A DNA stretch of 64,000 nt from Candidatus Omnitrophica bacterium CG11_big_fil_rev_8_21_14_0_20_64_10. GTDB lineage: Bacteria; Omnitrophota; Gorgyraeia; 1-14-0-20-64-10. Where the stretch lies: positions 7,774 through 71,773 of the forward strand of contig PCVW01000010.1 in assembly GCA_002787095.1 (NCBI GenBank). The letters run 5' to 3'. Of this stretch, positions 7,871 through 24,542 are shown piece after piece; position 1 is the stretch's first letter, and each line of letters opens with the position of its first letter. The translations under genes were made by a program, and so were the position numbers. Below the pieces are notes generated by a model. That model was not told the DNA's origin and ran no database searches. It saw only the letters and a program-made list of their open reading frames with translations.

Positions 7871-8971
7871 CTAGGCGTCGAGGAGGGAGCGGGCGGCAGC
7901 CAAGACCGTTTCCGGCGGCAGTTCGGTCAGGCAGCGGTTCTCCCAGGGGCAAGGCGGGATCCGGAAGCCGCGGTAGCAGGGGCGGCAGGCCAGCCCTTTG
8001 GAGAGGATCCGATGTTGGGGGCCCGGCGGAAAAGGACCGTAGACCGATCCGTCCACCGGTCCGAAGATCGTCACAGTGGGGGTCCCGACGGCGGCCGCCA
8101 GATGGAGCGGACCGCTGTCGTTTCCGATCACCAGCCGGCAGCGCCGCAGGATCGCCGCCAGTGTCATGAGGTCGGGGGCCGGCGGCAGGAGAATCGGTGG
8201 CCGGGGTGACCGCCGCAGCAGGTCGCGGCAGATCAGTTCGTCCGTGGGATCTCCAATGAGCGCCAGCGAGCGGCCCTCTCCCTGAAGGGCGTCGATCAGG
8301 GCCGCGTAGTGCCGGACCGGCCACTGTTTCAATGAAGCCCGCTCGCCCCAACTGGCCCCTCCCCCCGGCACCAGGGCGATCATCGGACCGACCGCCGGAT
8401 TCCAGCCGTTGTTTTTCAGGTGGTCTTCCCCGGCCCGGTCGAACGGTTCTGGGATCGGAATCGGTCCGGCGAACTGTTCCGGTCCGGCCGGGGGGTGTCC
8501 GGCGGCCGGCCGAAACTCCGGAAGGAGATTCAGCAGGGCGAAGTAATGAACGGCGACCGGCCGGTCGTCGAATCCATGGATTGGGAGCGAATCGGTCAGG
8601 AATCGCCCCCGGCCCCGGAAGTTCAGGCCGACCCGTCGGGGGATCCCGGCCCAGAGTCCCAGCCCCCCCAGCTGCCAACCGAGCGAGAGGTCCAGCTGGA
8701 GGTCGAACTGCTCCTTCCGAATTCGGTCCGCCAGGGCGCCAATCTCCCGCAGCCCGCCAATCCGGGATCGTTTCCAGGCGGCCCGCAGGGCATCCTTGTG
8801 ATACCGGATCGTCTCATCCACCTCCGGCCAGGCCTGCGCCAACGCCTCGGTCCGTTCGTTGCAGAGCAGGACCAGCCGGCCCTCCGGGAACCGTTGTTTG
8901 ACCGCCCGGACCAGCGGCAGCGAGAAGAGGAGGTCCCCGATACCGAACGGGTGCGTGATCAGGATCCGCAT
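7871..8971 (-). CDS. glycosyltransferase family 9 (LPS heptosyltransferase-like)
   Basis: MRILITHPFGIGDLLFSLPLVRAVKQRFP...LIGNDSGPLHLAAAVGTPTVTIFGP, the GT9 signature. ATG at 8971-8969; TAG stop at 7873-7871. Confidence 0.85.
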   Translation of the reverse strand: MRILITHPFGIGDLLFSLPLVRAVKQRFPEGRLVLLCNERTEALAQAWPEVDETIRYHKDALRAAWKRSRIGGLREIGALADRIRKEQFDLQLDLSLGWQLGGLGLWAGIPRRVGLNFRGRGRFLTDSLPIHGFDDRPVAVHYFALLNLLPEFRPAAGHPPAGPEQFAGPIPIPEPFDRAGEDHLKNNGWNPAVGPMIALVPGGGASWGERASLKQWPVRHYAALIDALQGEGRSLALIGDPTDELICRDLLRRSPRPPILLPPAPDLMTLAAILRRCRLVIGNDSGPLHLAAAVGTPTVTIFGPVDGSVYGPFPPGPQHRILSKGLACRPCYRGFRIPPCPWENRCLTELPPETVLAAARSLLDA

Positions 8972-9957
8972 TGCGCCAGGGTCTCCGCTTGGGCCGTCAC
9001 GGTTTCCGGGCTCGGATCAAACAGGAGCCGGCAGAGGTCCCCCATCGGCCGCCACCGCTTCAGCAGCCGTTCGTGCGTCTTGGGGGCGACGATGATCGTC
9101 GGGGTCCCGACCGCCGACGCGATGTGGGCCGGACCGCTGTCATTGCTGATTAGGAGCCGGCTTCGCTTGAGCAGGGCCCCCAAGCGCTCCAGGGGGACCT
9201 GCCCCACGCCGTCGATCGTTCCGGGCGGCAGCTCCTTTTCAAGGGATTCCATCCGGGGCCGGTTCTCCGTTCCCCCGATCAAGCAGATCCGTTTTCCCTC
9301 CTGGCTCAGGCGCCGGACGACTTCGCAGAAGGATTCCAGCGGCCAACTCTTTTCAGGATTACTGGTCCAGGGATGGATCGTGATCAGCGGTTCCCCCGGG
9401 TTGATCCCCTGCTGTTGGAGCCAGGACTCAATGCCGGCGGCCGCCGCCGGCGGGACCGGCAGCGGTACGGCCGCCGGCGCCTCCGGAAGCGGCTGAGGCG
9501 ACCCAAGCCCCAGCAGTTGGACCAGCTCCAGGTTGTATCGCGACTCATGGAGCTCCCGCTCCGCCTTGGTGTCCTCCAGGGTCCGATTCAGCAGGAAGCT
9601 CCATTTCCGGTGGTAGCCGATCCGGACCGGGATCCCCGCCAAAAAACAGGCGGCGTGAAAAAGCCGGGTGGGATTCAGCACCACGGCGGCACCGAACCGT
9701 TCCGGACGGAGCCGCTTTCCCCATCGCCACGCGGCGCCGAGGTTGTTCCCTTCATCGGGGGACCAGCCGATCAGCCGGTCGACGCCGGGGTAGCCTTCCA
9801 TCAGAGGGCGCACCGGCTGCTGCAGCAGAAGGGTCAATTCCGCCGCCGGGAAAGCGGCCCGAACCCAGGCCAGAGCCGGCAGGTTCATCAGGAGGTCCCC
9901 GATCCGGTCGGTCCGGATCAACAGGATCCGTTCAGGCGGCGCCGGTTGAGCGGTCAT
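8959..9957 (-). CDS. glycosyltransferase family 9 (heptosyltransferase-like), second copy
   Basis: ILLIRTDRIGDLLMNLPALAWVRAAFP...LISNDSGPAHIASAVGTPTIIVAPK; ATG at 9957-9955. Confidence 0.8.
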   Translation of the reverse strand: MTAQPAPPERILLIRTDRIGDLLMNLPALAWVRAAFPAAELTLLLQQPVRPLMEGYPGVDRLIGWSPDEGNNLGAAWRWGKRLRPERFGAAVVLNPTRLFHAACFLAGIPVRIGYHRKWSFLLNRTLEDTKAERELHESRYNLELVQLLGLGSPQPLPEAPAAVPLPVPPAAAAGIESWLQQQGINPGEPLITIHPWTSNPEKSWPLESFCEVVRRLSQEGKRICLIGGTENRPRMESLEKELPPGTIDGVGQVPLERLGALLKRSRLLISNDSGPAHIASAVGTPTIIVAPKTHERLLKRWRPMGDLCRLLFDPSPETVTAQAETLAQCGS

Positions 9958-11209
9958 GGCGAAGGGTTCGGGCGGTCCCCCAGACGGCGCCGGCCAGCGT
10001 CCAAAAGAGAGCCGACTGCCGCAGGGCGTAGAGTTGTGTGTCGAAGGCGATCTGGACCGCGAAAGCGGTCAAGGCCGCCAACCCGGCGGCCAGATCCACT
10101 CGGATCATCCGGGGGTCGTCGGCGGAAGGGGTTCGGATCGCCCGAATCGCGTGGATCGCGCCGGTGATCCCGAAGACCAGGAAGAGGCTCAACCCCACGA
10201 GCCCCGTCTCGGCGGCGATCTGCAGATAGCAGTTGTGGGCGTAGGCCGGACCGCCGGCGGTTCCCTGCCCGACGAACCGGTCGTAATTCGCCATGAAGGT
10301 GTTGAGCCCCTGTCCCAACAGCGGTTTGTCCAGGAACATCTGCCAGGCGGTCTTGAACCAGATCAACCGTTCGATGGACGAAGCATCCCGGAGCGCGGCC
10401 AGTTTCCCCCAGGCGTCGGTTTGAAAGAACATGTAGCCGTTGGCGGCCAACAGTCCGATCCCGGCCGGAATCCAGAACCGCCACCGCCCCGGTTTCAGAC
10501 ACAGGAGCAGAACGGCCGCCGCGGTTAGGCCGATCATCGAAGCCCGGGAGCGGGTTCCGATGATTGCGATCAGCAGCATCGCGAGCAGCAGGGTGAAGCC
10601 GCTGGAGAAGAGGCGGCCGGTCCAGTGGATCCGGACCAGCGCGATCGCCGCCGCCATCATCAGCAGGGTCGCCAGGTCGTTGGGATTGGTGTAGGGCCCC
10701 ATGAACCGCCCGTAGATCAGCGGTTTTCCAAGGACGGGGTCTGCGATGACGAGGCCGGGGTGCGTATTTCCCCAGACCGCCTGCTGCTGCAGGAAGGAGT
10801 GGAGCAGGACCAGGAGCGTCACCGTGACCAGGGCCCGCAGACAGCGGCGCAGCACGCCGGGCGTTTCGGCGATCCGTCCGGCGATGAAAAAGAAGAAGCC
10901 GTATTCCAATGTTTTTCGGATCCATCCGGCGATGCTCAAGCCCGGATGGGTGCTGAAGAAAACGGTGACGCCGCAGATTGTGAGATAGACGATCAGCCAG
11001 AAGCCGACCGGACGCCCCGGCCCCGGTTCCACCGGGAAGTTTCCCGGTCGGGGAATCCCCCAGCCGATCAGCCAGCAGGCAAGCAGGACGAAGAAGAGGA
11101 TTTCGATCGCCGCATTGGAATAGGGGATGACGAAAAAGAGAAGCGGAAGCGCCGACCGGCCGATGGTTCGGGCCGGCGGCCATCCCGCCCCTCGTTCGGT
11201 TTCGGTCAT
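9932..11209 (-). CDS. O-antigen ligase family (WaaL/Wzy_C) polytopic membrane protein
   Basis: About 12 TM segments and the Wzy_C motif AYAHNCYLQIAAETGLVGL. ATG at 11209-11207 forms an ATGA overlap with the upstream stop. Confidence 0.8.
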   Translation of the reverse strand: MTETERGAGWPPARTIGRSALPLLFFVIPYSNAAIEILFFVLLACWLIGWGIPRPGNFPVEPGPGRPVGFWLIVYLTICGVTVFFSTHPGLSIAGWIRKTLEYGFFFFIAGRIAETPGVLRRCLRALVTVTLLVLLHSFLQQQAVWGNTHPGLVIADPVLGKPLIYGRFMGPYTNPNDLATLLMMAAAIALVRIHWTGRLFSSGFTLLLAMLLIAIIGTRSRASMIGLTAAAVLLLCLKPGRWRFWIPAGIGLLAANGYMFFQTDAWGKLAALRDASSIERLIWFKTAWQMFLDKPLLGQGLNTFMANYDRFVGQGTAGGPAYAHNCYLQIAAETGLVGLSLFLVFGITGAIHAIRAIRTPSADDPRMIRVDLAAGLAALTAFAVQIAFDTQLYALRQSALFWTLAGAVWGTARTLRHDRSTGAA

Positions 11210-13023
11210 GGCGGATCTTGCAGGAAGGCCTGTTCGTCCGGAAGCAGGGTGTTCGCCATTCGCCAAGGGAGGGCATGTTCCTCGCAGGTGATTTGGACAT
11301 GCCGCACCAGATCAGCCGGCGGCCGGCGGATTGCGATCCAAACCTCCTGCACCGACCGTTCATGCAGCAGCCGGCCCAGCATCTGCCGGGGGCCGAGGAT
11401 CCGGACCCCATGGATCTGGCTGCCCCGCTTGGCCGGATCGTCGTCCAGAAATCCGACGATCTTCCTTCGGGATTGGGGCATCTGTTTGACTTGGCGGCTC
11501 AGCATCGCGCCGGTGTCGCCGGCCCCGATCACCAGGATTGCCCGGCTTTGGCCGGTTGAGAGCAAGATCCATTCGTCCAACAGCCGTTCGGTGACGCGGA
11601 CCCCTCCGATGAGGATGAAGAGGAGCAGCGCGTCAATGACGAAGGTCGTCCGGGAATACCCTTCGAACTTCCAGAGCATCAGGACGGCGATGGCCGAAAA
11701 GACCGATCCCAGCAGGACCGCCCGAAGAATGTTGACGAGGTCAGGAATGCCGGTGTAGCGCCAGATCCCCCGGTAGAGGCCGCAAGAAAAGAAGCAGAGC
11801 ATCTTGACGCCGATCACCAGCGGCAGCGTTCGGCCGATCAGCTGCTGTGTTTCAGCGGTCAGGCCCCCCTCGTAACGCAGCAGATGGGCGAACACATAGG
11901 CGGCGCAGATCATCGTGAAGTCAATGCCGACCTCAACGATCCGTCGTTTGTGGAGCAGCATCGTCTGGATCAGGGTCACCCGCTCCTGGGGATGAGGGGT
12001 CCAGCCGGCTGGACCGGTATAGACCCGGACCTTGCCGAGATAGATGCCGAAGATCAGGAACCCGCCAACGGCGAGCAGCCAGACGCCGGCAATGGTCAGC
12101 GGCAGCTGACGGGTCATCGCGACGCTGAGGAGGCCGAATCCAATCGAGATCCCGTAGAGGGTGAAGACCACCTGCCGGGTGGTCAGTCCCAGAATACTCA
12201 TCCGGTGGGAAAGATGGTCGGTCCCCCCCTGGAATGGGGAGCGGCCGTGCGTCATCCGCTGCAGGGTGACGAACAGGGTGTCGAAGATCGGCACCGCCAG
12301 CAGCAGCGACGGCAAGGCCAGGATCCCGACCAGCCGGGTAGATTGCTGCCAGGTGCCGGCCAGCGCCAAGGCTCCCAGCCCCAGTCCCAGCACCTGGCTG
12401 CCGGAGTCCCCCAGGAAGACCTTGGCCGGCGGCAGATTGAACCGGAGAAAGGCGAGCGCGCTGCCCCCAATGGCCGCCGCAATCACCGCCACATCCGCCT
12501 GCCCTACTGCGGCGGCGTGCCAAACACAAAAAAAGGCGGCGATTGCCCCGATCCCCGCCGCCAAACCGTCCATGTTGTCGATCAGATTGAAAGCGTTCAT
12601 CATCAGAATCAACCAGCCGATCGTGACCGGGGTTTCAAGCCACGGAACCGGCAGGGAGACCTGGATGCCGCACAGGGGGACCGCGCAGGCGGCGATGATT
12701 TGGGCGACCAATTTCGCATAGGGACTCAGCCGGCGGATGTCGTCCACCATCCCGATGCCCAGCATCAGGATTCCCGCCAGGGCCAGACCGATCAGGGTCT
12801 TGTCCTGGGGGATCTGTGAAGCGATTGCCGCCAGGAAGCTCAGCGCCAGCGGGACCCCTCCCAGGCGGGCGATCACCCGCCGGCCCCAGCGGTCGTTCGA
12901 GGGGTGGGAAACCCATCCCTGTGCAACGGCCAGGCGGCGGATCAAGGGGGTGCTCAGCAGCATGAAAAGGCCGGCGCCCCCTCCCCAGATCAGAATCGAT
13001 GGAAACATGTCAGTCGGATCCAT
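11206..13023 (-). CDS. WecA/MraY-family polyprenyl-phosphate HexNAc-1-phosphate transferase fused to a WbaP-N-terminal-like TM/Rossmann domain
   Basis: The N-terminal half has the PNPT motifs (MVDDIRRLSP, NAFNLIDNMDGLAAG). The C-terminal ~250 aa have 4 TM helices, then ILVIGAGDTG and KIVGFLDDDPAKRG...GVRILG, which resemble the N-terminal CoA-binding-like region of WbaP-type phosphoglycosyltransferases but without their catalytic domain. ATG at 13023-13021. Confidence 0.75.
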   Translation of the reverse strand: MDPTDMFPSILIWGGGAGLFMLLSTPLIRRLAVAQGWVSHPSNDRWGRRVIARLGGVPLALSFLAAIASQIPQDKTLIGLALAGILMLGIGMVDDIRRLSPYAKLVAQIIAACAVPLCGIQVSLPVPWLETPVTIGWLILMMNAFNLIDNMDGLAAGIGAIAAFFCVWHAAAVGQADVAVIAAAIGGSALAFLRFNLPPAKVFLGDSGSQVLGLGLGALALAGTWQQSTRLVGILALPSLLLAVPIFDTLFVTLQRMTHGRSPFQGGTDHLSHRMSILGLTTRQVVFTLYGISIGFGLLSVAMTRQLPLTIAGVWLLAVGGFLIFGIYLGKVRVYTGPAGWTPHPQERVTLIQTMLLHKRRIVEVGIDFTMICAAYVFAHLLRYEGGLTAETQQLIGRTLPLVIGVKMLCFFSCGLYRGIWRYTGIPDLVNILRAVLLGSVFSAIAVLMLWKFEGYSRTTFVIDALLLFILIGGVRVTERLLDEWILLSTGQSRAILVIGAGDTGAMLSRQVKQMPQSRRKIVGFLDDDPAKRGSQIHGVRILGPRQMLGRLLHERSVQEVWIAIRRPPADLVRHVQITCEEHALPWRMANTLLPDEQAFLQDPP

Positions 13024-13858
13024 TATAGCGTACCCGGCGGGCCTGCAGCCGCTGCACCCACCGGTACCAGTCATAGCATCCGGCGGCTCCCTTTCGGATC
13101 TCCTCGGGGTCGTCTCCCCAGCTGAGGCGGATCCGCTTGAGACAAAGGGGATCGGTTCCAGAAGCGGTTTCCACCCCCCAGACGGTTGTGCAGGCGGTTT
13201 GGAACTTGTGCCGTTCCAAGAGGGTTCGGGTCGCGGGGGTGAAGGTGCCGTAGGTACCGTAGGGATAGGCGAAGTGGACCGGTGGGGTCCCGATCCGCTC
13301 CTGAATGATTTGTCGGGAGCGTTCCAGTTCCCGCTCTGCTTCCTCCAGCGGCAGGTGGCTCAGGGGATGGTGGGCATCGGTGTGGCTGCCGATCGTCCAG
13401 CCCGGTTCGGAAGCGAGACGCCGCAGCTCCGGCCAGGTCATCGGACGGCCCAACGCCGGTCCGGTCCAGGAGAAGGCTGGCCGGCCGATCCAGCCGGTTG
13501 CGACGAACAAGGTGGCTGGGACCCGATGCCGCGCCAGAATGGCCTGGGCATGTTCCAGAACGCCGAGGTAGCCGTCATCAAAGGTGACCGCGACCCAGGG
13601 TCCCCCGTCGGCTCCCCGCCGCAGGAGGTTGACCCCCTGCCCCAGCTCGACCGGCGTCAACCCGGCCGGCCGGAGGAGCGCCAGATGGCTTTCCAGCCGT
13701 TCCGCGGAGATGCTCACCTGCAGTGGATCCTCGACCGGTGCGGCGGTGACCGCGTGGTACATCAGAATGGTCAGGGAGCGGGCCGGGATCTGCCGCAGCC
13801 CGAGCCGGTGCAGCCCGGCCCCGACTGCCTGCCGGATCCGGAGCCGAGCCGGCTTCAT
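13010..13858 (-). CDS. polysaccharide deacetylase (CE4/NodB homology)
   Basis: VAVTFDDGYLGVLEHAQAILARHRVPATLFV, then HTDAHHPL. The start is the internal M (MKPARL...) overlapping the upstream stop; the local numbering is uncertain by 1 nt. Confidence 0.8.
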   Translation of the reverse strand: MKPARLRIRQAVGAGLHRLGLRQIPARSLTILMYHAVTAAPVEDPLQVSISAERLESHLALLRPAGLTPVELGQGVNLLRRGADGGPWVAVTFDDGYLGVLEHAQAILARHRVPATLFVATGWIGRPAFSWTGPALGRPMTWPELRRLASEPGWTIGSHTDAHHPLSHLPLEEAERELERSRQIIQERIGTPPVHFAYPYGTYGTFTPATRTLLERHKFQTACTTVWGVETASGTDPLCLKRIRLSWGDDPEEIRKGAAGCYDWYRWVQRLQARRVRYNGSD

Positions 13859-14685
13859 CCCGGCTTCGTCAGCTCCAGGATTCCCTCCCGGCCCCAACCG
13901 CGCAGCGGTCCGTTCGGAAGGGATAGGTTCGCGATCCGGTCCCACGCCCGGGTCAGCGGCGACAGAGCAGGGATTTGGAATGGAAAGTGGTGGCAATGAA
14001 ATTGGGGCGGTCCCTGCGGAGCCAGTCCCGCCTCCCGGGCCAGCCGGGTGACGCTTGCGGCCGAGAAGAACCGGTTGGGGATGTCGGCCCGGAAGGAGAG
14101 CCGCTGCTCATCGGGGCGGCGGAGCAGTCCGAGCCCGGCGCCCAGAGCGGCCGCGATGCGGACCGATTGAACGGCGGCCCGATGCAGGCTGTTTAAGGGA
14201 GCGCGATTGTTTGGAAAGGTCAGGAGGATTTGTCCGCCCGGGCGGAGGGTCCGGGCCATTTCTCTGATTGCCGGTTGGATGTCCGGCAGGTACTGCAGCA
14301 CCCCGCTGCAGAGAATGGCGTCAAAAACGCTGTCGGAAAACGGCAGTCGGCCGATCTCTCCGACCCCGTGATGGGCCCGGGCCGCGGCGGGATGCCCGGC
14401 AAGGGACTGTCGGCCGAGCCGGATCATCTCGCGGGAAAGGTCCATCGTCCAGCATTCGGCGCCGAGCGCCAGGAGCGCTTCCGTGAAAACGGCCGGACCG
14501 GCCCCGATGTCCAGAACCCGGCCCGGAGGTTGCTTCAATCGTTCGAGGAGAAGCCGGCGCCGTTCCCGGAAGATTTCACCGCGGGCCTCGCCGGTCCGCT
14601 CGTAAGCGGCTTGATAGGGGGCGGCATCCCGGTCGAAATAGGTTTTGACGGTTTGTTCGGCGGACGGCAGCGGGCGGCCGGTCAC
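13855..14685 (-). CDS. class I SAM-dependent methyltransferase (MT2)
   Basis: VLDIGAGPAVF motif I and Methyltransf_11-like spacing. GTG start at 14685-14683 forms a GTGA overlap with the upstream stop. Confidence 0.75.
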   Translation of the reverse strand: MTGRPLPSAEQTVKTYFDRDAAPYQAAYERTGEARGEIFRERRRLLLERLKQPPGRVLDIGAGPAVFTEALLALGAECWTMDLSREMIRLGRQSLAGHPAAARAHHGVGEIGRLPFSDSVFDAILCSGVLQYLPDIQPAIREMARTLRPGGQILLTFPNNRAPLNSLHRAAVQSVRIAAALGAGLGLLRRPDEQRLSFRADIPNRFFSAASVTRLAREAGLAPQGPPQFHCHHFPFQIPALSPLTRAWDRIANLSLPNGPLRGWGREGILELTKPG

Positions 14686-15665
14686 TTCACGGAGATCAGG
14701 TCGGGGGTCTTCTGGGTATAGTCGATCACATCCTGAATGATCGACTTCAAGTCCCGGGTCGGTCGGAATCCGACGAACTCCCGCGCTTTCGTGGTGTCGG
14801 GGACCCGCCGCTGCATGTCTTCAAAACCCTCTTCATAGGCTTCGTCGTAGGGGATGTGCGAGATGCGGGAGCGGCTGCGGGTTTGGGCGATCACCTGCTG
14901 GGCCAGGGATTCGATCGTGACCTCCTCCTGCGAGCCGAGGTTGAAGGCCTGCCCGGCCGCCTTCGGCAGATGGATCAGCTTCATGATTGCCTGCACCGCG
15001 TCTTGCACATGCATGAAACAGCGGGACTGCTTGCCGTCCCCGTAGACGGTCAGCTCGGCTCCCTTGAGGGCCTGTTGGACGAACCGGGGAATGACCATTC
15101 CGTAGGTTCCGGTCTGCCGGGGGCCGACCGTGTTGAACAGGCGGACGATCACCGTGGGCAGCCCTTTCTCCCGCCAGTAGGTGTAGGCCAAGATCTCGTC
15201 GACCGCCTTCGAGGTGGAGTAGGACCACCGGCTCTTCAGAGGGGAGCCCAGGATTCGGTCCTCATCCTCTTTCAGCGGGCCGTGGCTGTTCTTGCCGTAG
15301 ATTTCGGAAGTGGAGGTGATCAGCGTCGGCCGCCGGTAGCGGTTGGCCGCTTCCAGGACAATCTCGGAGCCCCGGATGTTGGTCGTCAGGGATTCGAACG
15401 GCTTCTGAACGATCAGTTCCACCCCGACGGCCGCCGCCAGATGAAAAACCACATCACACCGTTCGACGAATTTGTCGACCAGCCGCTCGTCCAGAATCGA
15501 GCCGACCACCAGCGTGAAGCGGGGGTTTTTCTGAAGCGCTTCGACATTCTGGAGCCGGCCGGTGGAAAGATTGTCCAGGGCCACGACCTCATGTCCCTCC
15601 TGAAGCAGCAACTCTCCGAGATGGGATCCGATGAAGCCGGCCCCGCCTGTGATCAGGGCGCGCAT
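14682..15665 (-). CDS. NAD-dependent nucleotide-sugar epimerase/dehydratase (UDP-hexose 4-epimerase-like SDR)
   Basis: MRALITGGAGFIGSHL and catalytic YSTSK; ATG at 15665-15663. Confidence 0.85.
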   Translation of the reverse strand: MRALITGGAGFIGSHLGELLLQEGHEVVALDNLSTGRLQNVEALQKNPRFTLVVGSILDERLVDKFVERCDVVFHLAAAVGVELIVQKPFESLTTNIRGSEIVLEAANRYRRPTLITSTSEIYGKNSHGPLKEDEDRILGSPLKSRWSYSTSKAVDEILAYTYWREKGLPTVIVRLFNTVGPRQTGTYGMVIPRFVQQALKGAELTVYGDGKQSRCFMHVQDAVQAIMKLIHLPKAAGQAFNLGSQEEVTIESLAQQVIAQTRSRSRISHIPYDEAYEEGFEDMQRRVPDTTKAREFVGFRPTRDLKSIIQDVIDYTQKTPDLISVK

Positions 15666-15678
15666 GAGGGGGATTATA

Positions 15679-16890
15679 TCACAGCGTTTTGGAAAGGAGC
15701 TCCCGATACTGCCCGTCCATCTGGTCGAGCAGCCGGTCCTTCGTGAAACGGGCCCGGGCGTCGGCCCTGCCCTGCCGTCCCATGGTCCGGCGCTTATCGG
15801 GATGCTCCAGCAACTGCCAGAGGGCGTCGGAAAAGTGGAGGATGTCCCCCTTCCTAACGAGGCATCCGTTTTCCCCGTCCTGGATCACATCCCGGACCCC
15901 TCCCACATCCGTTCCGACGACCGGCGTCCCGCAGGCGAGCGCTTCGATCAGCGCGACCGGCGTCCCTTCGTTGAGGGAGGTCAGGACCGCCGCATCCAGA
16001 TCGGGATAAATCCGTTCCAACTGGCGCCGCCAGCCGAGGAATTGGACCGATTCCCCGAGCCCCCAAAGGGCGGCGATCTGTTCCAGGCGCGGCCGCAGCT
16101 CTCCGTCTCCGATCACCAGGAATTGGATCGGGTCTGCTCCCTCAGCCCGGACCCGGCGGTGAATTAGCCGGGCTGCTTCCAGGAACATCTGGTGGTTTTT
16201 GATCGGAACGAGCCGACCGACGATCCCGACGAGCCGGGTCCGGGGGTCCGCCCCCAGTTCCTTTCGGAAGGCGCCGGCATGCATGGCGGAGTCGAAAAAG
16301 GGATCCAGGTCCAGCCCCAGGTGGACGGTGCGGACTTTCTCGGAAGGGACGACCCGGAATCGACGGGTTAGTTCCTCCCGTTGGCTGGCGCTGATCACAT
16401 AGATCCGGTTGGAGAGACGGCCGAGGAACCGTTCGATCCCCAGAAAGAGGGCTGTTTTCCATTTCGGGAAGTAGCTGTGAAAGACATGGCCGTGAAAGGT
16501 GTGGACCCGGATCCGGACGCCGCAGGCGACCGAGATCAGGCGGCCGAGGGTCCCCGCTTTGGCCATGTGGGTGCAGACGATGTCGGGCCGGAAGCTCCGG
16601 AAGGTCCGCCACAGCTTCAGGGCTGCGATTGCGTCGTGCAGCGGATGGATCCGACGGTGCAGCTCCGGGATGTAAACCAGCCGGACGCCGGCCTGCTCGG
16701 CGGCGCTGCGCATGTCTCCCTCTCCCGGCTCGACCGATCCGGTGATCAGCAGGGTTTCATAGCCCCGCTCCCCCATCTCTCTCGACATCAGGATCGCGTG
16801 CAGGGCCGGCCCGCCGATGTTGAGGCGGGTGATCACACGCGCGACCCGAATCTTCCGCCGTTCCTTCGCCGGAGCCGCTGATGCTTTCAC
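15679..16890 (-). CDS. family-4 (GT-B) glycosyltransferase
   Basis: Glycos_transf_1-like C-terminal half (GIVGRLVPIKN...FLVIGDGELR...SLNEGTPVALIEALACGTPVV). GTG start at 16890-16888 in a GTGA overlap. The 346-aa upstream extension of track ORF 15679..17931 is rejected. Confidence 0.8.
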   Translation of the reverse strand: MKASAAPAKERRKIRVARVITRLNIGGPALHAILMSREMGERGYETLLITGSVEPGEGDMRSAAEQAGVRLVYIPELHRRIHPLHDAIAALKLWRTFRSFRPDIVCTHMAKAGTLGRLISVACGVRIRVHTFHGHVFHSYFPKWKTALFLGIERFLGRLSNRIYVISASQREELTRRFRVVPSEKVRTVHLGLDLDPFFDSAMHAGAFRKELGADPRTRLVGIVGRLVPIKNHQMFLEAARLIHRRVRAEGADPIQFLVIGDGELRPRLEQIAALWGLGESVQFLGWRRQLERIYPDLDAAVLTSLNEGTPVALIEALACGTPVVGTDVGGVRDVIQDGENGCLVRKGDILHFSDALWQLLEHPDKRRTMGRQGRADARARFTKDRLLDQMDGQYRELLSKTL

Positions 16891-18122
16891 ATCCACCCGT
16901 TGAAACGGTAGTAGGCGACCGCCAACACCTCGTGCAGCAGCCCCTCGATCTGCTTCCAGCGGGGCGGCCGCTCGGTCGGATAGAAAAGACTCTTCTCGAT
17001 CGGCACCGGGATCCAGTCGATCTCGGGGGTTTGCCGGGAGAAGGTGCCGACGGCCCGGCGCATGTGGTAGGGGGAGCTGACCAGCAGGACCTTGCGAGCC
17101 GGGAGTGTTTCCAGCAGGGCGCCGATTCGCCGGGCCTCTTCCAGGGTATTGCGTCCTTCCGATTCCAGCAGGATATTCCGCTCCGGAACGCCGAGCGACA
17201 GGGCGAGCGCCTTCATGACCTCGGTCTCCTGAAAGCGGTAGCTGTAGCCGGAGGCCAACAGGATCTTCGGGGCCCATCCGGCCTGGTACAGGGCCACTCC
17301 CCGGGCCACCCGCTCTTCGTAACCCTGCCCCGGTCGTCCCGATTCTCCGACACCCCCTGCCAGCACGACGATGGCGTCGGCCGGCTGGGGAGGCGCGGCC
17401 TGCTTCAGCGGCTGCGCGAGCCACCAGACCAGCGGGGTGTGAAAGAGAGCGACATAGACCAGGCCGATGGCGAGGGTCACCCGGAAGATTTTTCGGAGGG
17501 AGCGCAGCCAGTCGGCGGCCCACCGCTTCTCCCAATGGTTTTCCCGTTCCCATTGCAGGATCTCCAACTCCCCCTCGATCAGTTCCGTCAACGTCTCCAG
17601 CGGCTGCTGTTCCGGCGCCCAGGTGCAGACCCGGTTGTGCCGCCCGCTCCAGGCGGCCTGACACGCCGGGGTGTCGGCAATGACCAGGTTCACCCGATCC
17701 AGGAGCCGCAATTCCCCCGGCGCTTCGGCGGGCCGGACCGGTCCGGCCGGTTCCGTCAGTTGTTGCCGCAGGATCAGCCGGCTGGCGATCCCCCGGGCGA
17801 GCGCTTCGGCGGGGCGGCCGGCGCCGAAAAGCCAGAGGATTGGCTGATTGAAGTTCATCAGGTGCATCCACCGGCGGAGGATCGGCAGGAAGGTCGGTTG
17901 GGCCATCGCTCCCGGCACCGGCAGGCGGCACCCGTACAAGCGGGGCTCAATTTGGAAGAATCCCCTGCGGGGTTTTCCCGCCGCGATCGGGCCGGCTGTC
18001 TTCGGGAAAATCAGGAGGAGCCGGTTCCCTGCCCGCGCCAGTCGTCGAACCAGGCGGCCGGTCCGGCTTTCCGGATTCCAGGCGGAGGGGATCCAGCAAA
18101 GGATCGTCTGCTGGGTCAGCAT
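16887..18122 (-). CDS. DUF218/YdcF(ElyC)-family domain protein with N-terminal GT-B-N-domain-like extension
   Basis: C-terminal AIVVLAGGVG...YHMRRA is a DUF218 signature. It is preceded by a TM helix and about 230 aa resembling the N-terminal half of the adjacent GT-B enzyme. ATG at 18122-18120. Confidence 0.55.
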   Translation of the reverse strand: MLTQQTILCWIPSAWNPESRTGRLVRRLARAGNRLLLIFPKTAGPIAAGKPRRGFFQIEPRLYGCRLPVPGAMAQPTFLPILRRWMHLMNFNQPILWLFGAGRPAEALARGIASRLILRQQLTEPAGPVRPAEAPGELRLLDRVNLVIADTPACQAAWSGRHNRVCTWAPEQQPLETLTELIEGELEILQWERENHWEKRWAADWLRSLRKIFRVTLAIGLVYVALFHTPLVWWLAQPLKQAAPPQPADAIVVLAGGVGESGRPGQGYEERVARGVALYQAGWAPKILLASGYSYRFQETEVMKALALSLGVPERNILLESEGRNTLEEARRIGALLETLPARKVLLVSSPYHMRRAVGTFSRQTPEIDWIPVPIEKSLFYPTERPPRWKQIEGLLHEVLAVAYYRFNGWM

Positions 18123-19330
18123 CGGACCGCCGTCCGTTCCAGCGCTTCCCCCATCCGTTGCCGCATCTGTGCGATCCGGGTCCCCCAGTCGTGGGTTCGG
18201 GCCGCTTCCTGCCGCCGACGGACCGTCTCGGGGTCGGTCAGGGTTCGGGCCTGCTCAATGGCCTGGAGAAAACCGGCCGGATTCTCCGCGATTTGGACCA
18301 GTCCGTTGAAATCGGCGTTGTAGGCCAGCACCTCCGGCAGCGGCGAGGCCACGACCGGTTTCCCGAGGGCGTGGTACTCGTGCAGTTTGGTCGGATAGAC
18401 CGTCCGGGTGTAGCCGGTCAATCGGTACGGGATCACCCCGACATCAAACGACCGGGCGATCGCCGGAAGCTCCTCGGGCCGTCGGGGGCCGAGCCGATGA
18501 ACGTTCGGAAGGTGCCGGAGAGCGGTCATCGGGGCCAGCTCCGGTCCCACGAGCAGGAAGGACCAGGCCGGCCGGTGGACGGCGGCGTGGGCGATCCAGT
18601 CGATGTCCAGATGCCGGTGGAGGCCGCCGATGTAGCCGATTCTCGGCCGCGGCAGGCCGGCGATCTGAGCCGGTTCGGGACGGTTCGCTGCCTGGGCGTA
18701 GTCATCGTAACGGACGCCGAAGGGAAAAATCTCCACCGACCGGTTGTGGACCCGGCAGCGGTCGGCGAGCGCCCTTCCCTGGGCAAAGACCAGATCGCAG
18801 GCAGTCAAAAGGGCCGATTCGGAACGACGGATCACAGCCGGCCGCGGACTGATCTGTTCGAAGTCGGCGATGCAGTAATAGATCAGCAGCCGCCTCGACA
18901 GATGGCGCAGGGTCGACTGAATCAACGGGGTTGGGAGGAACGACCAGACGATCGGCCGGTTCCCGCCGCCGGCGGACAGCAGCCAGGCTGCAATCGTCCG
19001 GGCCAGGTGGCGGCCGTTCCAGGCCGTGATCGCAGGTTGATAAGGAGAGGGGACCAGCAGCGGGCTGTGCACCCAGAGCCGATCCTCGACCCGGCGCAGC
19101 CGGCTGCGCCGGTTGCCCCCCCGGCGCAGCCGGTCCCGCAGGCGGCCGGCGTCCCGCCAGCCGGGAGTCCGGATGCCGGTGTTCTCAATGAAGAGAACCG
19201 GGTGGCCCGCCCGGGCCAGCGCAGACATGATCTCCTGATGGCCCTGGCGGTTGAAACTCCAGTCGATCGAAGAGAAGCAGACCACCGGCAGATCGGCCGG
19301 TGCTTCCATCTCAAGCGGCCGGGTGTTCAT
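18116..19330 (-). CDS. GT-B-fold glycosyltransferase (GT4-like)
   Basis: 404 aa. C-terminal TKLHEYHALGKPVVASPLPEV resembles the GT4 E-x7-E region. ATG at 19330-19328. Confidence 0.6.
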   Translation of the reverse strand: MNTRPLEMEAPADLPVVCFSSIDWSFNRQGHQEIMSALARAGHPVLFIENTGIRTPGWRDAGRLRDRLRRGGNRRSRLRRVEDRLWVHSPLLVPSPYQPAITAWNGRHLARTIAAWLLSAGGGNRPIVWSFLPTPLIQSTLRHLSRRLLIYYCIADFEQISPRPAVIRRSESALLTACDLVFAQGRALADRCRVHNRSVEIFPFGVRYDDYAQAANRPEPAQIAGLPRPRIGYIGGLHRHLDIDWIAHAAVHRPAWSFLLVGPELAPMTALRHLPNVHRLGPRRPEELPAIARSFDVGVIPYRLTGYTRTVYPTKLHEYHALGKPVVASPLPEVLAYNADFNGLVQIAENPAGFLQAIEQARTLTDPETVRRRQEAARTHDWGTRIAQMRQRMGEALERTAVRC

Positions 19331-20615
19331 GATCCTCCCGCGGCGGGATTTGCCAGGCGGCCAGCAGGCCGAAGCCGATCCAAAGGAAGCGGAAATTCAT
19401 GATGTCGACATGGAGACTGTTGACCAGGAGTCCGATGTTCGCCGCCCACAGGGCGCGGCGCATCCAGAGGAAGGTTTCCTCCGGGCCGGCCCGGGTCGGC
19501 CGTCCGGCGGCCGCGCCGAGGAGGCCGATCCAGAGAAGAATCAGGAAGCCTGTTCCGATCCCGCCCGTTTCGGCGAGCCGGCCGAGCAGCATGCTGTGGG
19601 GATCGATGCGTTCATACGGGTGGTGGATCCGCCCGGCGTCGAATGCCGACTGGGTCACTTCGTGGAATCGGTTCAATCCCCGTCCGATCCAGGGATGCTG
19701 CGCGAAGGTCTCCAGCGAGAATCGCTTCAGCAGACCATAGCTGATCCAGTTGTAGGCGATCCCGACCGACAGCTGTTCGGCCCCTCGCCGGGGATCCTGG
19801 AAACTGTATTGGTCGGTCGGCGCCGGGAGATCCGGCCGGAAACTCCGCTCGATTCGGACCTCCCGGATCAGGACCCAGGAGACCGCTTGGATCGCGAGGA
19901 TCACGCCGATCGTGACGGCCACCCCGGCCGGCTTGAACCAGCGGTTGCGCTCCTGCAGGAAAGGCCAGAGGAACAGCAGGCCGGCGGTGAACCAGCCGGC
20001 CCAGGCATGCGAAAAGGTGCCGATCAGGGCGGCGGCTCCGATCGGGAGGGTCCATCGCCAAAAATGGGCGCGGGGTCCGAAACGGCTCAAGCCCAGCCAG
20101 ACCGGCAGGACAAAGGTCAGGTAGTTTCCGAAATATTCATGGGTGTAGAAGGTCCCCTTGGCTCGGAAAACCTCCCCCAGATAGGGGACCGGCCAGGGGT
20201 TGCCGATCGCGTACAGGTAGCGGCCGCTGACCGCATAGACGGCCGTCGCCCCCAGGGCAATGACCGACACCGCCAGTCCGACCCCGGTCATCCAGGGGAG
20301 GATCCGTTCCCGGAACCGCGGATCCCGGCCGATGACGGAGAAGGCGCCGTACAGGGCGGCCAGGTAGAGCTGTTTGGCGAGCTCCAGCGCGGAAGCGGCC
20401 CGGTTGTCGCTGTTCCAAAATGAGATCAGTCCGCCGAGCAGATATAATCCGACCAGCGCATCCAGCCGGCTCCACCGCCGCCGGGGCAGCTTTCCCAGGG
20501 CGGCGGCCGCGATCAATCCGATCGCGAACCCGTCGGCCGGCAGGATGTTTCCGGGAAACCGGTGCAGGCTGACCGGCAGCAGCAGCAGGAGACCGAGCAG
20601 CAGGGAGCGGAGCAC
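19311..20615 (-). CDS. O-antigen polymerase/ligase family (Wzy_C) polytopic membrane protein, second copy
   Basis: Multi-TM protein with HPHSMLLGRLAETGGIGTGFLILLW (Wzy_C-like). GTG start at 20615-20613. Confidence 0.65.
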   Translation of the reverse strand: MLRSLLLGLLLLLPVSLHRFPGNILPADGFAIGLIAAAALGKLPRRRWSRLDALVGLYLLGGLISFWNSDNRAASALELAKQLYLAALYGAFSVIGRDPRFRERILPWMTGVGLAVSVIALGATAVYAVSGRYLYAIGNPWPVPYLGEVFRAKGTFYTHEYFGNYLTFVLPVWLGLSRFGPRAHFWRWTLPIGAAALIGTFSHAWAGWFTAGLLFLWPFLQERNRWFKPAGVAVTIGVILAIQAVSWVLIREVRIERSFRPDLPAPTDQYSFQDPRRGAEQLSVGIAYNWISYGLLKRFSLETFAQHPWIGRGLNRFHEVTQSAFDAGRIHHPYERIDPHSMLLGRLAETGGIGTGFLILLWIGLLGAAAGRPTRAGPEETFLWMRRALWAANIGLLVNSLHVDIMNFRFLWIGFGLLAAWQIPPREDHEHPAA

Positions 20616-21530: not shown

Positions 21531-22276
21531 GACAGCGCCCTCTGCATCCGAACCAGATTCCGGAAGACCTCCGGCATCCGCCGGATGAGGTTGCGGTATC
21601 CGATCTGCCGGATCTCCCGGATCGGAACGGGGATTTCCCGAATCCGGAGGCCGGCCCGCTGGATTCGAAGCACCAGTTCGGTGTCGAAGATGAAGTGGTC
21701 GGTCACGCAGGCGGCCGCCAGAGTCGAGACCGGTTCCCGCAGGAAGGCCTTCATGCCGTGGGTGTCGGTCCCCTGGAAACCGAAGAAAAGCCGGAGGAAG
21801 CCGTTAAAGCTGCGGGTGATCCAGCGCCGCAGGATCGGCCGGCGATCCCAATCGGTCCGGAGCGTCTTGGAGCCGATCACGAGGTCCGCTTCCCGAAGGG
21901 CTTTCAGCGCTTCCCCGAGGAACTCCGGGCTCCAGAAATCGATGTTAAAGATCACGACCGCCTCCCGGCGGCAGGCGGCGATGCCCCCCTGCAGCGCCCG
22001 GCCGTAGTTGGCTTCCGGAAGACGCAGGGTCCGGACCGCCGGATGGTTTTGGGCAAAGGTTTCGGCCATCGGGCCGGTGGCGTCTGTGGAGCCGTTCTCG
22101 GCGATCAGCACCTCGAACGGCAGTCCCTGCCCTTCGGCGGCTTCCAGGATTCCCGGCAGCTGCTTCGAAAGGACCGGCGCATCGTTGTAGACCGGCACCA
22201 GGACGGAAAAGGAGCCGATGGTTTGTTGGGTCGGTGTCATGGTCTGGGGTTGTGCCTCTTGGAATCCGGTTATCAT
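21527..22276 (-). CDS. polyprenol-phosphate glycosyltransferase (GT2, DPM1/ArnC/GtrB-like)
   Basis: FSVLVPVYNDAPVL...VLIAENGSTDAT...IFNIDFW. ATG at 22276-22274 (MITGFQ...) in an ATGA overlap with the upstream stop. Confidence 0.75.
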   Translation of the reverse strand: MITGFQEAQPQTMTPTQQTIGSFSVLVPVYNDAPVLSKQLPGILEAAEGQGLPFEVLIAENGSTDATGPMAETFAQNHPAVRTLRLPEANYGRALQGGIAACRREAVVIFNIDFWSPEFLGEALKALREADLVIGSKTLRTDWDRRPILRRWITRSFNGFLRLFFGFQGTDTHGMKAFLREPVSTLAAACVTDHFIFDTELVLRIQRAGLRIREIPVPIREIRQIGYRNLIRRMPEVFRNLVRMQRALS

Positions 22277-23790: not shown

Positions 23791-24542
23791 TCGGGGCCCC
23801 TCTGCTCGCAGGCGAGATAGAAACCAGCGCATTGCCCGGGCCAGACGGCGGCCAGCCGCTGCATCAGACGCCAGCCGAAGGCCGGCCAATGGCACCAATC
23901 GAACAGCCGGGTATGGGGGATGAAGAAGTTCTCCCGGAACACCGACCGGATCTCAAAGCCGGCCGCTTCGATCTTCCGGCGGAGCGCCGGTTCGGTGAAG
24001 AAATGGAGGTGGTCGGTTTGCTTCAGGATCTTCGGTTGGACCCAGCGGTTCCGGAGGCGGCCGAGACGGCAGCCTTCGTTGGGCACGCCGAGCCAAAGCC
24101 GGCCGCCCGGTTTCAGGATCCGGCGCAATTCCCGGAGCGCCGAATCGGTCTCCCGCACATGCTCCAGCACCTGCGAGGCCAGGACGCCGTCGAAGACACC
24201 GTCCCGGAATCCCAGCGCCCCGATCTCTCCCAGCGCCAGGCGGGCTTCCGGGAAGCCGACCCGGGTCCGCCGCAGACGGAGGAGATTGAGGTCGCAGCCC
24301 CAGAGGTCGACCCCCGGTCGGCGCAGCGGGGTCATCATCAGGCCGTCGCCGCAGCCGATCTCCAGCAGCCGGATTCCGCTCCGGTTCGACAGATGCCGTT
24401 CGACCTCCTCCTCGATCCAGCGGATCCGCTGCTCGATCGTCCGGCGCATCGCCGGCTGCCGCAGGTAATCTTGCTGGGGATCAGTCTGCCACGGGTCCCC
24501 CGCCGCCCGCCGCTCCCGCAGCCGTTCCCAGTCAGTCGGCAT
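23787..24542 (-). CDS. class I SAM-dependent methyltransferase (MT4)
   Basis: LLEIGCGDGLM motif I; ATG at 24542-24540. Confidence 0.8.
   Translation of the reverse strand: MPTDWERLRERRAAGDPWQTDPQQDYLRQPAMRRTIEQRIRWIEEEVERHLSNRSGIRLLEIGCGDGLMMTPLRRPGVDLWGCDLNLLRLRRTRVGFPEARLALGEIGALGFRDGVFDGVLASQVLEHVRETDSALRELRRILKPGGRLWLGVPNEGCRLGRLRNRWVQPKILKQTDHLHFFTEPALRRKIEAAGFEIRSVFRENFFIPHTRLFDWCHWPAFGWRLMQRLAAVWPGQCAGFYLACEQRGPE

What the first reader, a model, noticed from the sequence alone, without database searches (positions are those of the whole stretch)
11206..13023. Chimeric initiating transferase: WecA/MraY-type catalytic domain fused to a WbaP-N-terminal-like TM/Rossmann module
Residues 1-350 carry the polytopic PNPT motifs (DDxxD-like MVDDIRRL, NAFNLIDNMDGLAAG). 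The C-terminal ~250 aa add four more TM helices and a Rossmann-like ILVIGAGDTG...KIVGFLDDD...GVRILG segment. That segment is characteristic of the non-catalytic N-terminal region of WbaP/PglB-type monotopic phosphoglycosyltransferases, which here lacks its catalytic domain. I do not recall this combination of the two initiating-enzyme superfamilies in one polypeptide being described.
Basis: partly seen in the sequence, partly recalled or inferred. Interest (0 to 1): 0.55.

Follow-up and report, generated by a model that had tools for sequence, protein, structure and literature searches.

The report
WecA-like transferase fused to dehydratase-type membrane module
This gene encodes a sugar-phosphate transferase that starts cell-surface glycan assembly, permanently fused to a membrane-anchored nucleotide-binding module; the fusion is real and found in many bacterial phyla, but the module comes from a sugar-dehydratase lineage, not from the other family of initiating transferases as first proposed.

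Summary
One uninterrupted minus-strand ORF (11206-13023) carries PF00953 (residues 78-223, E 4.5e-31) and PF13727 (429-565, E 1.7e-13). All PNPT catalytic motifs are intact. An AlphaFold2 model (pLDDT 82.6, pTM 0.80) shows 11 PNPT helices, a linker, 4 helices and a Rossmann domain.

It is not an artefact. In all 81 ORFs tested (window plus 80 species-representative genomes) both halves lie in one reading frame. Hosts include Omnitrophota, Acidobacteriota, Nitrospirota, Chloroflexota and Heliobacteria.

The module is homologous to the WbaP N-terminus, but it is much closer to the N-terminal module of PglF/WbpM/CapD-type membrane-bound UDP-GlcNAc dehydratases:
- Nearly all annotated plasmid tblastn hits sampled are that class.
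- The module HMM scores 69-156 bits on dehydratases against 11-70 bits on large monotopic transferases.
- Rare relatives of about 950 aa keep a full dehydratase domain, and one carries a decayed one.

The protein is therefore best read as a WbpL-type transferase fused to a WbpM-type protein that lost its catalytic domain. The module's function is inferred, not shown: nucleotide sensing, dimerisation or docking. No publication describing this architecture was found. Interest is moderate.

The parts
11206..13023 (-). CDS of the fused protein (605 aa plus stop). Alternative starts are 13074 (622 aa, NCBI PIQ82815.1) and 13008 (600 aa, P0001).
12019..13023 (-). PNPT (polytopic phosphoglycosyl transferase) domain, residues 1-335, with 11 TM helices. 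The PF00953 core is residues 78-223 (12355-12792).
12739..12744 (-). D94-D95, the Mg2+-binding DD motif on the cytosolic side after TM3. It is invariant in 140 cluster representatives.
12562..12597 (-). N143-AFNLID-N150-MDGL154, the NxxNxxD(G/N)xDGL motif. The family signature is DNMDGL, where WecA and MraY have DGxDGL.
12397..12411 (-). G205-DSGS209, a conserved cytosolic loop motif of PNPTs.
12202..12219 (-). D269-HLSHR274, the His-containing motif of the last cytosolic loop. It corresponds to the HIHH/HHH region of WecA/MraY; that assignment is from memory.
11956..12018 (-). Poorly conserved cytosolic linker, residues 336-356, with low pLDDT.
11557..11955 (-). Four-helix transmembrane bundle of the accessory module, residues 357-489. 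D368 (99%) and R476 (96%) are conserved.
11209..11556 (-). Cytosolic Rossmann-like DUF (the PF13727 part), residues 490-605. It includes GAGDTG (11509-11526) and DDD (11437-11445).
11206..11209 (-). ATGA overlap: the target's TGA stop shares bases with the ATG of the downstream Wzy_C gene, implying translational coupling.
9932..11209 (-). Downstream Wzy_C (O-antigen ligase/polymerase-like) gene. The ORF is listed from TTG 11266; the likely start is ATG 11209.
14682..15665 (-). Extended-SDR epimerase/dehydratase gene. Its homologue (51-73% identity) lies directly upstream of the fused gene in 41 of 70 assessable related loci. In the window a deacetylase and a methyltransferase lie between.
15679..17931 (-). 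GT4-family glycosyltransferase (GT domains at residues about 363-746; the N-terminal 360 aa of the ORF are probably not coding). A homologue lies upstream in 61 of 80 related loci.

Best explanation
The gene encodes the initiating enzyme of a surface-glycan pathway. It is a WecA/WbpL-type polytopic phosphoglycosyl transferase that moves a (probably HexNAc-type) sugar-1-phosphate from a UDP-sugar onto undecaprenyl phosphate and releases UMP. The PNPT has 11 helices, so it ends in the cytoplasm. There it is fused through a short linker to a 4-helix membrane bundle and a cytosolic Rossmann-like nucleotide-binding domain (PF13727).

This module belongs to the PglF/WbpM/CapD membrane-dehydratase lineage. 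The most likely history starts from adjacent wbpL-like and wbpM-like genes. These fused into a three-domain protein (PNPT, module, dehydratase), which still exists in a few lineages. The dehydratase domain was then lost in most, leaving the conserved two-domain form seen here.

The retained module is under selection. By analogy with WbaP, I infer that it serves as a dimerisation and uridine-nucleotide-sensing (UMP feedback) cap on the transferase. It may also dock the soluble SDR enzyme encoded in the same operon.

Shown: architecture, intact catalytic motifs, topology, conservation, phyletic spread, and the module's closer affinity to dehydratases. Inferred: the order of fusion and loss, the substrate, and the module's function.
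For: Domains: (PF00953 108 bits, PF13727 51 bits).

Catalytic residues: D94, D95, N143, D149, D152, G153, G205, D206, D248, H270, H273 and R274 are 99-100% conserved in 140 cluster representatives.

The PNPT HMM scores a PNPT encoded next to a PglF-like gene at 106.8 bits, E. coli WecA at 87.1 and MraY at 52.9.

Module affinity: tblastn of the module alone against 72,556 plasmids gave 227 records. In the top 50 and in a 60-row spread of the whole ranking, every annotated hit except one Lg-PGT (E 9e-4) is a PglF/WbpM-type dehydratase. The module HMM scores 156/137/93/72/69 bits on dehydratases against 70/27/23/18/11 on Lg-PGTs.

Three-domain relatives: P0122, P0124, P0126 and P0267 carry PF00953 + PF13727 + PF02719. 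P0152 carries a decayed SDR domain.

Unfused arrangement: a PNPT gene overlaps a PglF-like gene by 4 bp in E. coli pKTa005_1. The wbpL-wbpM pairing is conserved in Pseudomonas (PMC6804347).

Constraint on the module: majority-residue fraction is 0.45-0.47 against 0.50 for the PNPT domain and 0.16-0.21 for linker and tail. G500 is 99% and D527 94% conserved.

WbaP's homologous DUF mediates dimerisation and binds UMP/UDP/UTP (PMC10942596).

Synteny: GT4-SDR-fusion in 41 of 70 loci. Three independent three-domain loci have no separate SDR directly upstream.
Against: The three-domain forms are rare. In a crude midpoint-rooted NJ tree they are nested among two-domain forms, not basal. Secondary re-acquisition of the dehydratase domain cannot be excluded.

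The dehydratase references were chosen as best hits to the module, while the Lg-PGT references were chosen by similarity to WcaJ. The HMM comparison is therefore biased. The plasmid ranking is the less biased test. One Lg-PGT (Thermomicrobium) scores 70 bits, as high as the weakest dehydratases.

No ligand, oligomer or activity data exist for any member. WbaP's beta-hairpin dimer swap is not evident in the DSSP of the model.

The window's SDR is only a distant relative of both the PglF SDR domain and the pKTa005 SDR. In the window it is not adjacent to the fused gene. 29 of 70 loci lack it upstream.

The substrate is unassigned: the WecA equivalog model scores 86 bits against a cutoff of 326.
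Confidence: 0.7

Rival explanations
1. One reading: a chimera of the two initiating-enzyme superfamilies. In this view a polytopic PGT captured the N-terminal 4TM + DUF of a WbaP/WcaJ-type large monotopic PGT whose catalytic domain was lost.
For: TIGR03025/TIGR03023/TIGR03022 (Lg-PGT models) match residues 367-590 with their N-terminal halves only, at E 2.7e-20 to 2e-8. Foldseek aligns 243 columns with WbaP 8t53. One Lg-PGT scores 70 bits with the module HMM.
Confidence: 0.12
2. Split-enzyme scaffold. The module's main role is to dock the separately encoded soluble SDR of the operon at the membrane. This would rebuild in trans the PNPT-dehydratase assembly seen in cis in the three-domain relatives, and would channel a modified UDP-sugar to the transferase.
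For: A well conserved SDR (51-73% identity, higher than the 33-49% of the fused protein itself) lies directly upstream in 41 of 70 assessable two-domain loci. It is absent from that position in all three independent three-domain loci. In PglF-like enzymes the DUF is directly followed by the SDR domain.
Against: Only three three-domain loci were examined. 29 of 70 two-domain loci lack the upstream SDR. In the window two genes separate it from the fused gene. The SDR belongs to a different extended-SDR subfamily from PF02719; its best models are LegB or dTDP-glucose dehydratase, well below cutoff. No interaction evidence exists. This rival is compatible with the best explanation rather than exclusive of it.
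Confidence: 0.25
3. Vestige. The module is an evolutionary leftover of a lost dehydratase and has no function beyond neutral membrane ballast.
For: The catalytic partner domain is absent. The tail after the Rossmann core is poorly conserved (0.21). P0152 shows that domain decay happens in this family.
Against: The module is kept at full length in 81 of 81 ORFs across several phyla. Its conservation is nearly equal to that of the catalytic domain (0.45-0.47 against 0.50). The nucleotide-binding glycine motif and the acidic residue at the end of beta2 are preserved (G500 99%, D527 94%), as are the membrane residues D368 (99%) and R476 (96%).
Confidence: 0.05
4. Sequencing or assembly artefact. 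A frameshift or misassembly joined two separate genes.
For: None was found.
Against: The ORF is continuous. An identical protein occurs in independent assemblies. More than 120 full-length homologues of about 600 aa exist, and 81 of 81 ORFs are single-frame. The AF2 pTM of 0.80 for the whole chain indicates a coherent two-part fold.
Confidence: 0.01

Closest known systems
WecA/WbpL-type polyprenyl-phosphate N-acetylhexosamine-1-phosphate transferases (PNPT/polyPGT, PF00953)
   Different: It carries a 270-residue C-terminal 4TM + Rossmann module that characterised PNPTs lack. It scores far below the WecA equivalog cutoff (86 against 326 bits). Its family signature is DNMDGL where others have DGxDGL.
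PglF / WbpM / CapD (Cap5D) / WbgZ membrane-anchored UDP-GlcNAc 4,6-dehydratases
   Same: Their N-terminal 4TM + PF13727 module is the closest relative of the window's C-terminal module, at 69-156 bits over all four helices and the Rossmann domain. Genes of this class often sit directly after a PNPT or PGT gene.
   Different: The window protein has no PF02719 SDR catalytic domain. The module is C-terminal to another enzyme instead of N-terminal.
Three-domain relatives PNPT + 4TM/DUF + Polysacc_synt_2 (P0122, P0124, P0126, P0267; uncharacterised metagenomic proteins)
   Same: They are 33-45% identical to the window protein over residues about 14-591 and have the same domain order.
   Different: They keep a complete dehydratase domain of about 330 aa after the module, and they lack a separate SDR gene directly upstream.
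Large monotopic PGTs (WbaP, WcaJ, CpsE)
   Same: They have a homologous 4TM + PF13727 module with the same cytosolic location. For WbaP this module mediates dimerisation and binds uridine nucleotides (PMC10942596). Both enzyme types release UMP.
   Different: The catalytic domain is unrelated (PF02397 monotopic fold against PF00953 polytopic fold). In WbaP the module is N-terminal. Sequence similarity to the window's module is lower (11-70 bits).

Membership tests
PNPT / polytopic PGT superfamily (PF00953, MraY/WecA/GPT) | Match to PF00953 above the gathering threshold | tested here: met
   108.4 bits against a cutoff of 27, residues 78-223
PNPT / polytopic PGT superfamily (PF00953, MraY/WecA/GPT) | Catalytic motifs: the cytosolic DD pair, NxxNxxDGxDGL, a conserved Asp in a late TM helix, and the His motif in the last cytosolic loop | tested here: met
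   D94-D95, N143...D149-N-M-D152-G-L, D248 and D269-H-x-S-H-R274 are all at least 99% conserved in 140 representatives. One variation is Asn in place of the first Gly of DGxDGL.
PNPT / polytopic PGT superfamily (PF00953, MraY/WecA/GPT) | Polytopic 10-11 helix fold of MraY/GPT | tested here: met
PNPT / polytopic PGT superfamily (PF00953, MraY/WecA/GPT) | Transfer of sugar-1-phosphate to polyprenyl phosphate; sensitivity to tunicamycin-class inhibitors | not testable with these tools
   Requires biochemistry.
WecA proper (UDP-GlcNAc:Und-P GlcNAc-1-P transferase, TIGR02380) | Score above the curated cutoff of the WecA model | tested here: not met
   86.1 bits against a cutoff of 326. The JGI name 'UDP-GlcNAc:undecaprenyl-phosphate GlcNAc-1-phosphate transferase' for homologues is therefore not established.
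MraY (TIGR00445) | Score above the curated cutoff | tested here: not met
   49.8 bits against a cutoff of 192. The PNPT HMM scores E. coli MraY lowest of three references.
Large monotopic PGT (WbaP/WcaJ; TIGR03022/03023/03025) | Monotopic catalytic domain (Bac_transf, PF02397) in the C-terminal half | tested here: not met
   No PF02397 hit. Only profile positions 2-221 of about 450 are matched, and scores of 34-73 bits fall far below the cutoffs of 295-410.
Large monotopic PGT (WbaP/WcaJ; TIGR03022/03023/03025) | 4-TM bundle plus PF13727 DUF | tested here: met
   It is closer to the dehydratase version of the module.
PglF/WbpM/CapD-type membrane dehydratase | Polysacc_synt_2 (PF02719) SDR catalytic domain | tested here: not met
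   Absent from the window protein, whose ORF ends about 40 residues after the PF13727 match. Present in relatives P0122, P0124, P0126 and P0267.
PglF/WbpM/CapD-type membrane dehydratase | N-terminal-type 4-TM bundle plus PF13727 DUF with closest similarity to this class | tested here: met
Uncharacterised PNPT-4TM/DUF fusion family (about 600 aa) | Full-length colinear similarity with both domains in one ORF | tested here: met
   120 of 120 listed homologues carry PF13727 + PF00953 at 48-100% identity and 86-99% query coverage. All 80 loci match residues about 25-590. 81 of 81 ORFs are single-frame.

The most novel reading that the evidence does not exclude
The 4TMH + PF13727 unit may be a self-contained, portable control module for the committed early steps of glycoconjugate assembly. 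It is now seen on three unrelated catalytic chassis: monotopic PGTs, PglF-like dehydratases and, here, polytopic PGTs. On polytopic PGTs it would work C-terminally as a UMP/UDP-sugar sensor and dimeriser, and possibly as the membrane dock for a separately encoded SDR. That would make a split version of a PNPT-dehydratase channeling machine whose covalent form survives in the three-domain relatives. If so, the family offers a natural experiment for the 'one-size-fits-all' feedback idea proposed for WbaP. It would also explain why dehydratases and transferases share the module.
Probability: 0.3. Interest if true: 0.6.

Novelty: new variant of a known kind. Interest (0 to 1): 0.4.

Why it matters
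[quoted passage not shown] The 4TMH-DUF module was only recently shown to dimerise WbaP and bind uridine nucleotides. Its presence on functionally unrelated dehydratases was called puzzling (PMC10942596).

A large, conserved, multi-phylum family in which the same module is attached to the other PGT superfamily extends that puzzle. Intermediate forms still carry the dehydratase. Together these suggest that the module's role relates to the shared context (membrane, Und-P, UDP-sugar/UMP) and not to any one catalytic domain.

The finding also corrects database names: the proteins are labelled 'hypothetical protein' or given an unsupported WecA name. No member has been characterised, and the biology affected (Omnitrophota and Acidobacteriota envelopes) is niche.

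Tried and rejected
1. Frameshift or assembly artefact: rejected.

2. A second module-bearing gene (Lg-PGT or PglF-like) in the window or the 80 loci, for an internal comparison: none found at E <= 1e-3. External references were fetched instead.

3. The idea that the upstream SDR is the WbpK/WbpV-type partner seen in the unfused E. coli pKTa005 locus: not supported. blastp gave only a 24-residue match at E 0.007. NCBIfam places it as a generic extended SDR, with LegB or dTDP-glucose dehydratase as best models far below cutoff.

4. A Polysacc_synt_2 gene split off near the two-domain genes: tblastn with three SDR domains from three-domain proteins found nothing in the 80 loci at 1e-10.

5. The AFDB Foldseek library was unavailable, so I could not list UniProt/AFDB entries with this architecture.

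6. Literature searches found no description of the architecture: CoA_binding_3/Glycos_transf_4, polytopic PGT + SSN + fusion, polyPGT, PF13727, PF00953 + PF02719, WbpM + PglF + transmembrane, and Omnitrophota + LPS.

7. The first tree script timed out. It was redone with a numpy distance matrix. The tree is NJ, midpoint-rooted and without support values, so it is used only to say that the three-domain forms fall in at least two places.

Full report
**1. The observation**

The feature lies on the minus strand. The ORF list gives 11206..13074 (622 aa from the first ATG). I number residues from that Met.

Pfam assigns PF00953 (Glycos_transf_4) to residues 78-223 (E 4.5e-31, 108 bits, cutoff 27). 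It assigns PF13727 (CoA_binding_3) to 429-565 (E 1.7e-13, 51 bits, cutoff 25). NCBIfam shows the WecA and MraY models matching residues 24-301. The N-terminal halves only of the large monotopic PGT models TIGR03025/03023/03022 match residues 367-590. All of these scores are far below the equivalog cutoffs.

An AlphaFold2 model built on 46 homologues is confident (mean pLDDT 82.6, pTM 0.80). It shows:
- eleven helices in residues 3-331;
- a low-confidence linker (332-356);
- four long helices (357-489);
- a beta-alpha-beta Rossmann domain (494-601).

Hydropathy and Lys/Arg counts place the DD, DNMDGL, GDSGS and DHxSHR motifs, the linker and the Rossmann domain all on the cytoplasmic side. The layout is topologically coherent. 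An 11-helix PNPT ends inside the cell, which is where a 4-helix, N-in module has to begin.

**2. It is not an artefact, and it is not rare**

- A 100% identical protein occurs in JGI, Logan and ENA assemblies (P0001). In NCBI it is PIQ82815.1, a 'hypothetical protein' from a Candidatus Omnitrophica MAG.
- All 120 listed homologues are about 600 aa and carry both Pfam domains.
- A scan of species-representative genomes found at least 597 stretches encoding a relative. The best 80 all match residues about 25-590. By record title they come from Omnitrophota, many Acidobacteriota (Pyrinomonadaceae, Blastocatellia, Chloracidobacterium), Nitrospirota, Nitrospinota, Chloroflexota, Rokubacteria, Heliobacteria and Desulfobacteria. 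Only those 80 were verified as full length, and MAG labels may be imperfect.
- In 81 of 81 ORFs (80 loci plus the window) the PNPT and module HMM hits lie in one uninterrupted frame. The linker is 9-23 residues, and the ORF ends 1-59 residues after the module.
- An exhaustive search of 50%-identity cluster representatives returned about 140 distinct full-length clusters among the best 150.

**3. The catalytic half**

A family HMM of this half scores:
- 106.8 bits on a PNPT that sits next to a PglF-like gene on an E. coli plasmid;
- 87.1 bits on E. coli WecA;
- 52.9 bits on MraY.

The domain is therefore a WecA/WbpL-type enzyme, not an MraY. It does not reach the WecA equivalog cutoff, and I leave the sugar unassigned beyond 'probably a UDP-HexNAc or a derivative'. 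A family signature is D-N-M-D-G-L, where WecA and MraY have D-G-x-D-G-L (N150 is 96% conserved).

**4. Where the accessory module comes from**

The literature establishes that the 4TMH + PF13727 unit heads two kinds of protein: large monotopic PGTs, and PglF/Cap5D-like dehydratases. In WbaP it forms the dimer interface and binds UMP, UDP and UTP (PMC10942596). Four lines of evidence favour the second.

(a) Plasmid search. tblastn of the module alone against 72,556 annotated plasmids gave 227 records. In the best 50 and in an evenly spaced 60-row sample of the whole ranking, every annotated hit is a 'nucleoside-diphosphate sugar epimerase/dehydratase', 'polysaccharide biosynthesis protein' or pglF. 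These include Shigella sonnei WbgZ. The single exception is one Lg-PGT at E 9e-4. Lg-PGTs are present in that collection.

(b) HMM scores. The module HMM scores 156, 137, 93, 72 and 69 bits on five dehydratases, across all four helices and the Rossmann domain. It scores 70, 27, 23, 18 and 11 bits on five Lg-PGTs. The reference sets were picked differently, so (a) is the fairer test.

(d) Longer relatives. Among the representatives are proteins of 936-1110 aa (P0122, P0124, P0126, P0267) with PF00953 + PF13727 + PF02719. That is a PNPT fused to a complete PglF/WbpM-type dehydratase. P0152 (936 aa), which clusters with them, has an extension with no Pfam hit. That extension retains weak similarity to P0126 and has a degenerate NAD motif, so it looks like a decayed SDR domain.

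The unfused precursor arrangement exists. On E. coli plasmid pKTa005_1 a GT4-family PNPT gene overlaps by 4 bp the start of a PglF-like dehydratase gene. The wbpL-wbpM pairing is conserved in Pseudomonas (PMC6804347).

In a crude NJ tree the PF02719-bearing forms fall in at least two places nested among two-domain forms. The direction of change (repeated loss or secondary gain) is therefore not settled. I favour fusion followed by loss, because the module as a whole is dehydratase-like and a decay intermediate exists.

**5. Is the module functional?**

Its conservation (majority-residue fraction 0.45 for the helices and 0.47 for the Rossmann core) is close to that of the catalytic domain (0.50). 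It is far above the linker (0.16) and the tail (0.21). The glycine-rich motif (G500 99%, A501 92%), the acidic residue after beta2 (D527 94%), G544, and the membrane residues D368 (99%) and R476 (96%) are all maintained. This argues against a vestige.

By analogy with WbaP, I infer a dimerising, uridine-nucleotide-sensing role. This has not been shown for any member.

**6. Genomic context**

The gene sits in a minus-strand glycan cluster of more than 25 kb. The cluster holds GT2s, two GT9 heptosyltransferases, two Wzy_C proteins, GT4s, methyltransferases, a deacetylase and SDRs. The target's stop codon overlaps the start of the downstream Wzy_C gene (ATGA).

Across related loci the order GT4 - SDR - fusion is conserved. 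A homologue of the window's SDR (51-73% identity) ends within 600 bp upstream in 41 of 70 assessable loci, and a GT4 lies upstream in 61 of 80. In three independent three-domain loci no separate SDR lies directly upstream, and two of them have GT4 directly upstream.

This pattern hints that the SDR function may be supplied either in cis or in trans, possibly docked by the module. The evidence is thin: only three three-domain loci were examined, the SDR subfamily is different, and the window itself has two genes inserted between.

**7. Comparison with what is known, and verdict**

The protein works like a WecA/WbpL-type initiating transferase, and it is a member of the PNPT superfamily. It is not WecA proper, not MraY, not an Lg-PGT (no PF02397) and not a PglF-type dehydratase (no PF02719). 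Its accessory module is a member of the 4TMH-DUF family and is nearest to the dehydratase branch.

I found no paper describing PF00953 + PF13727, with or without PF02719. The searchable library omits many subscription papers, and the AFDB fold library was unavailable.

I rate the finding as a new variant of a known kind, with moderate interest. It is a real, widespread, uncharacterised architecture that bears on a recently raised question about the module. It is built entirely from known parts, and its function is inferred only by analogy.

Noticed in passing
window 11206-11209 and 13006-13012: The genes are tightly coupled on both sides. The target's TGA overlaps the ATG of the downstream Wzy_C gene (ATGA). 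The upstream deacetylase's TGA is followed after one base by an ATG (13008) that other gene callers use as the target's start. NCBI uses 13074, which adds 17 residues with no homologue support.
   Followed up: partly
window 12562-12597 (residues 143-154): The family-wide signature is D-N-M-D-G-L (N150 96% conserved in 140 representatives). E. coli WecA, MraY and a WbpL-like PNPT have D-G-x-D-G-L. The consequence for Mg2+ or substrate binding is unknown.
   Followed up: partly
P0152 (936 aa, metagenomic; no locus fetched): A relative whose C-terminal extension has no Pfam hit but looks like a decayed Polysacc_synt_2 domain. Its NAD motif is degenerated to LGFSGAAS, and it keeps weak similarity to P0126 (E 8e-6). 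It is a possible pseudo-enzyme intermediate.
   Followed up: partly
P0183 (928 aa; SAR324 MAG, MBF0289938.1): Another family member carries a different C-terminal extension of about 330 aa with a weak TPR_12 hit instead of an SDR domain.
   Followed up: no
window 15679-17931 (-): The GT4 glycosyltransferase ORF has about 360 N-terminal residues rich in Pro, Arg, Gly and Ala with no domain hit. The GT domains start near residue 363. This is probably ORF over-extension in GC-rich DNA rather than a real N-terminal domain.
   Followed up: no
window 7871-9957 (-) and 9932-11266 / 19311-20615 (-): There are two tandem GT9 heptosyltransferase genes and two Wzy_C-family genes in the same cluster. The second Wzy_C hit is below the Pfam cutoff. 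This suggests that LPS-core-like and O-antigen-like functions are combined in this Omnitrophica cluster.
   Followed up: no
L091 3421-5016 (locus of three-domain relative P0126): The neighbourhood encodes a DegT aminotransferase and a fused GFO_IDH_MocA-Hexapep protein next to a Wzx flippase. This is consistent with a 4-amino-4,6-dideoxy-HexNAc (bacillosamine/QuiNAc4N-type) pathway fed by the fused dehydratase domain.
   Followed up: no
L083, L084, L086 (Deinococcus, Sphingomonas, S. sonnei plasmids): In these loci the PglF/WbpM-like dehydratase gene is adjacent to a small monotopic 'sugar transferase' (PglC-like) instead of a PNPT. The dehydratase-type module is thus encoded next to an initiating transferase of either superfamily.
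   Followed up: no
window 22273-23898 and 24532-26409 (-): Two long minus-strand ORFs (541 and 625 aa) inside the glycan cluster have no Pfam hit at E <= 1e-5.
   Followed up: no
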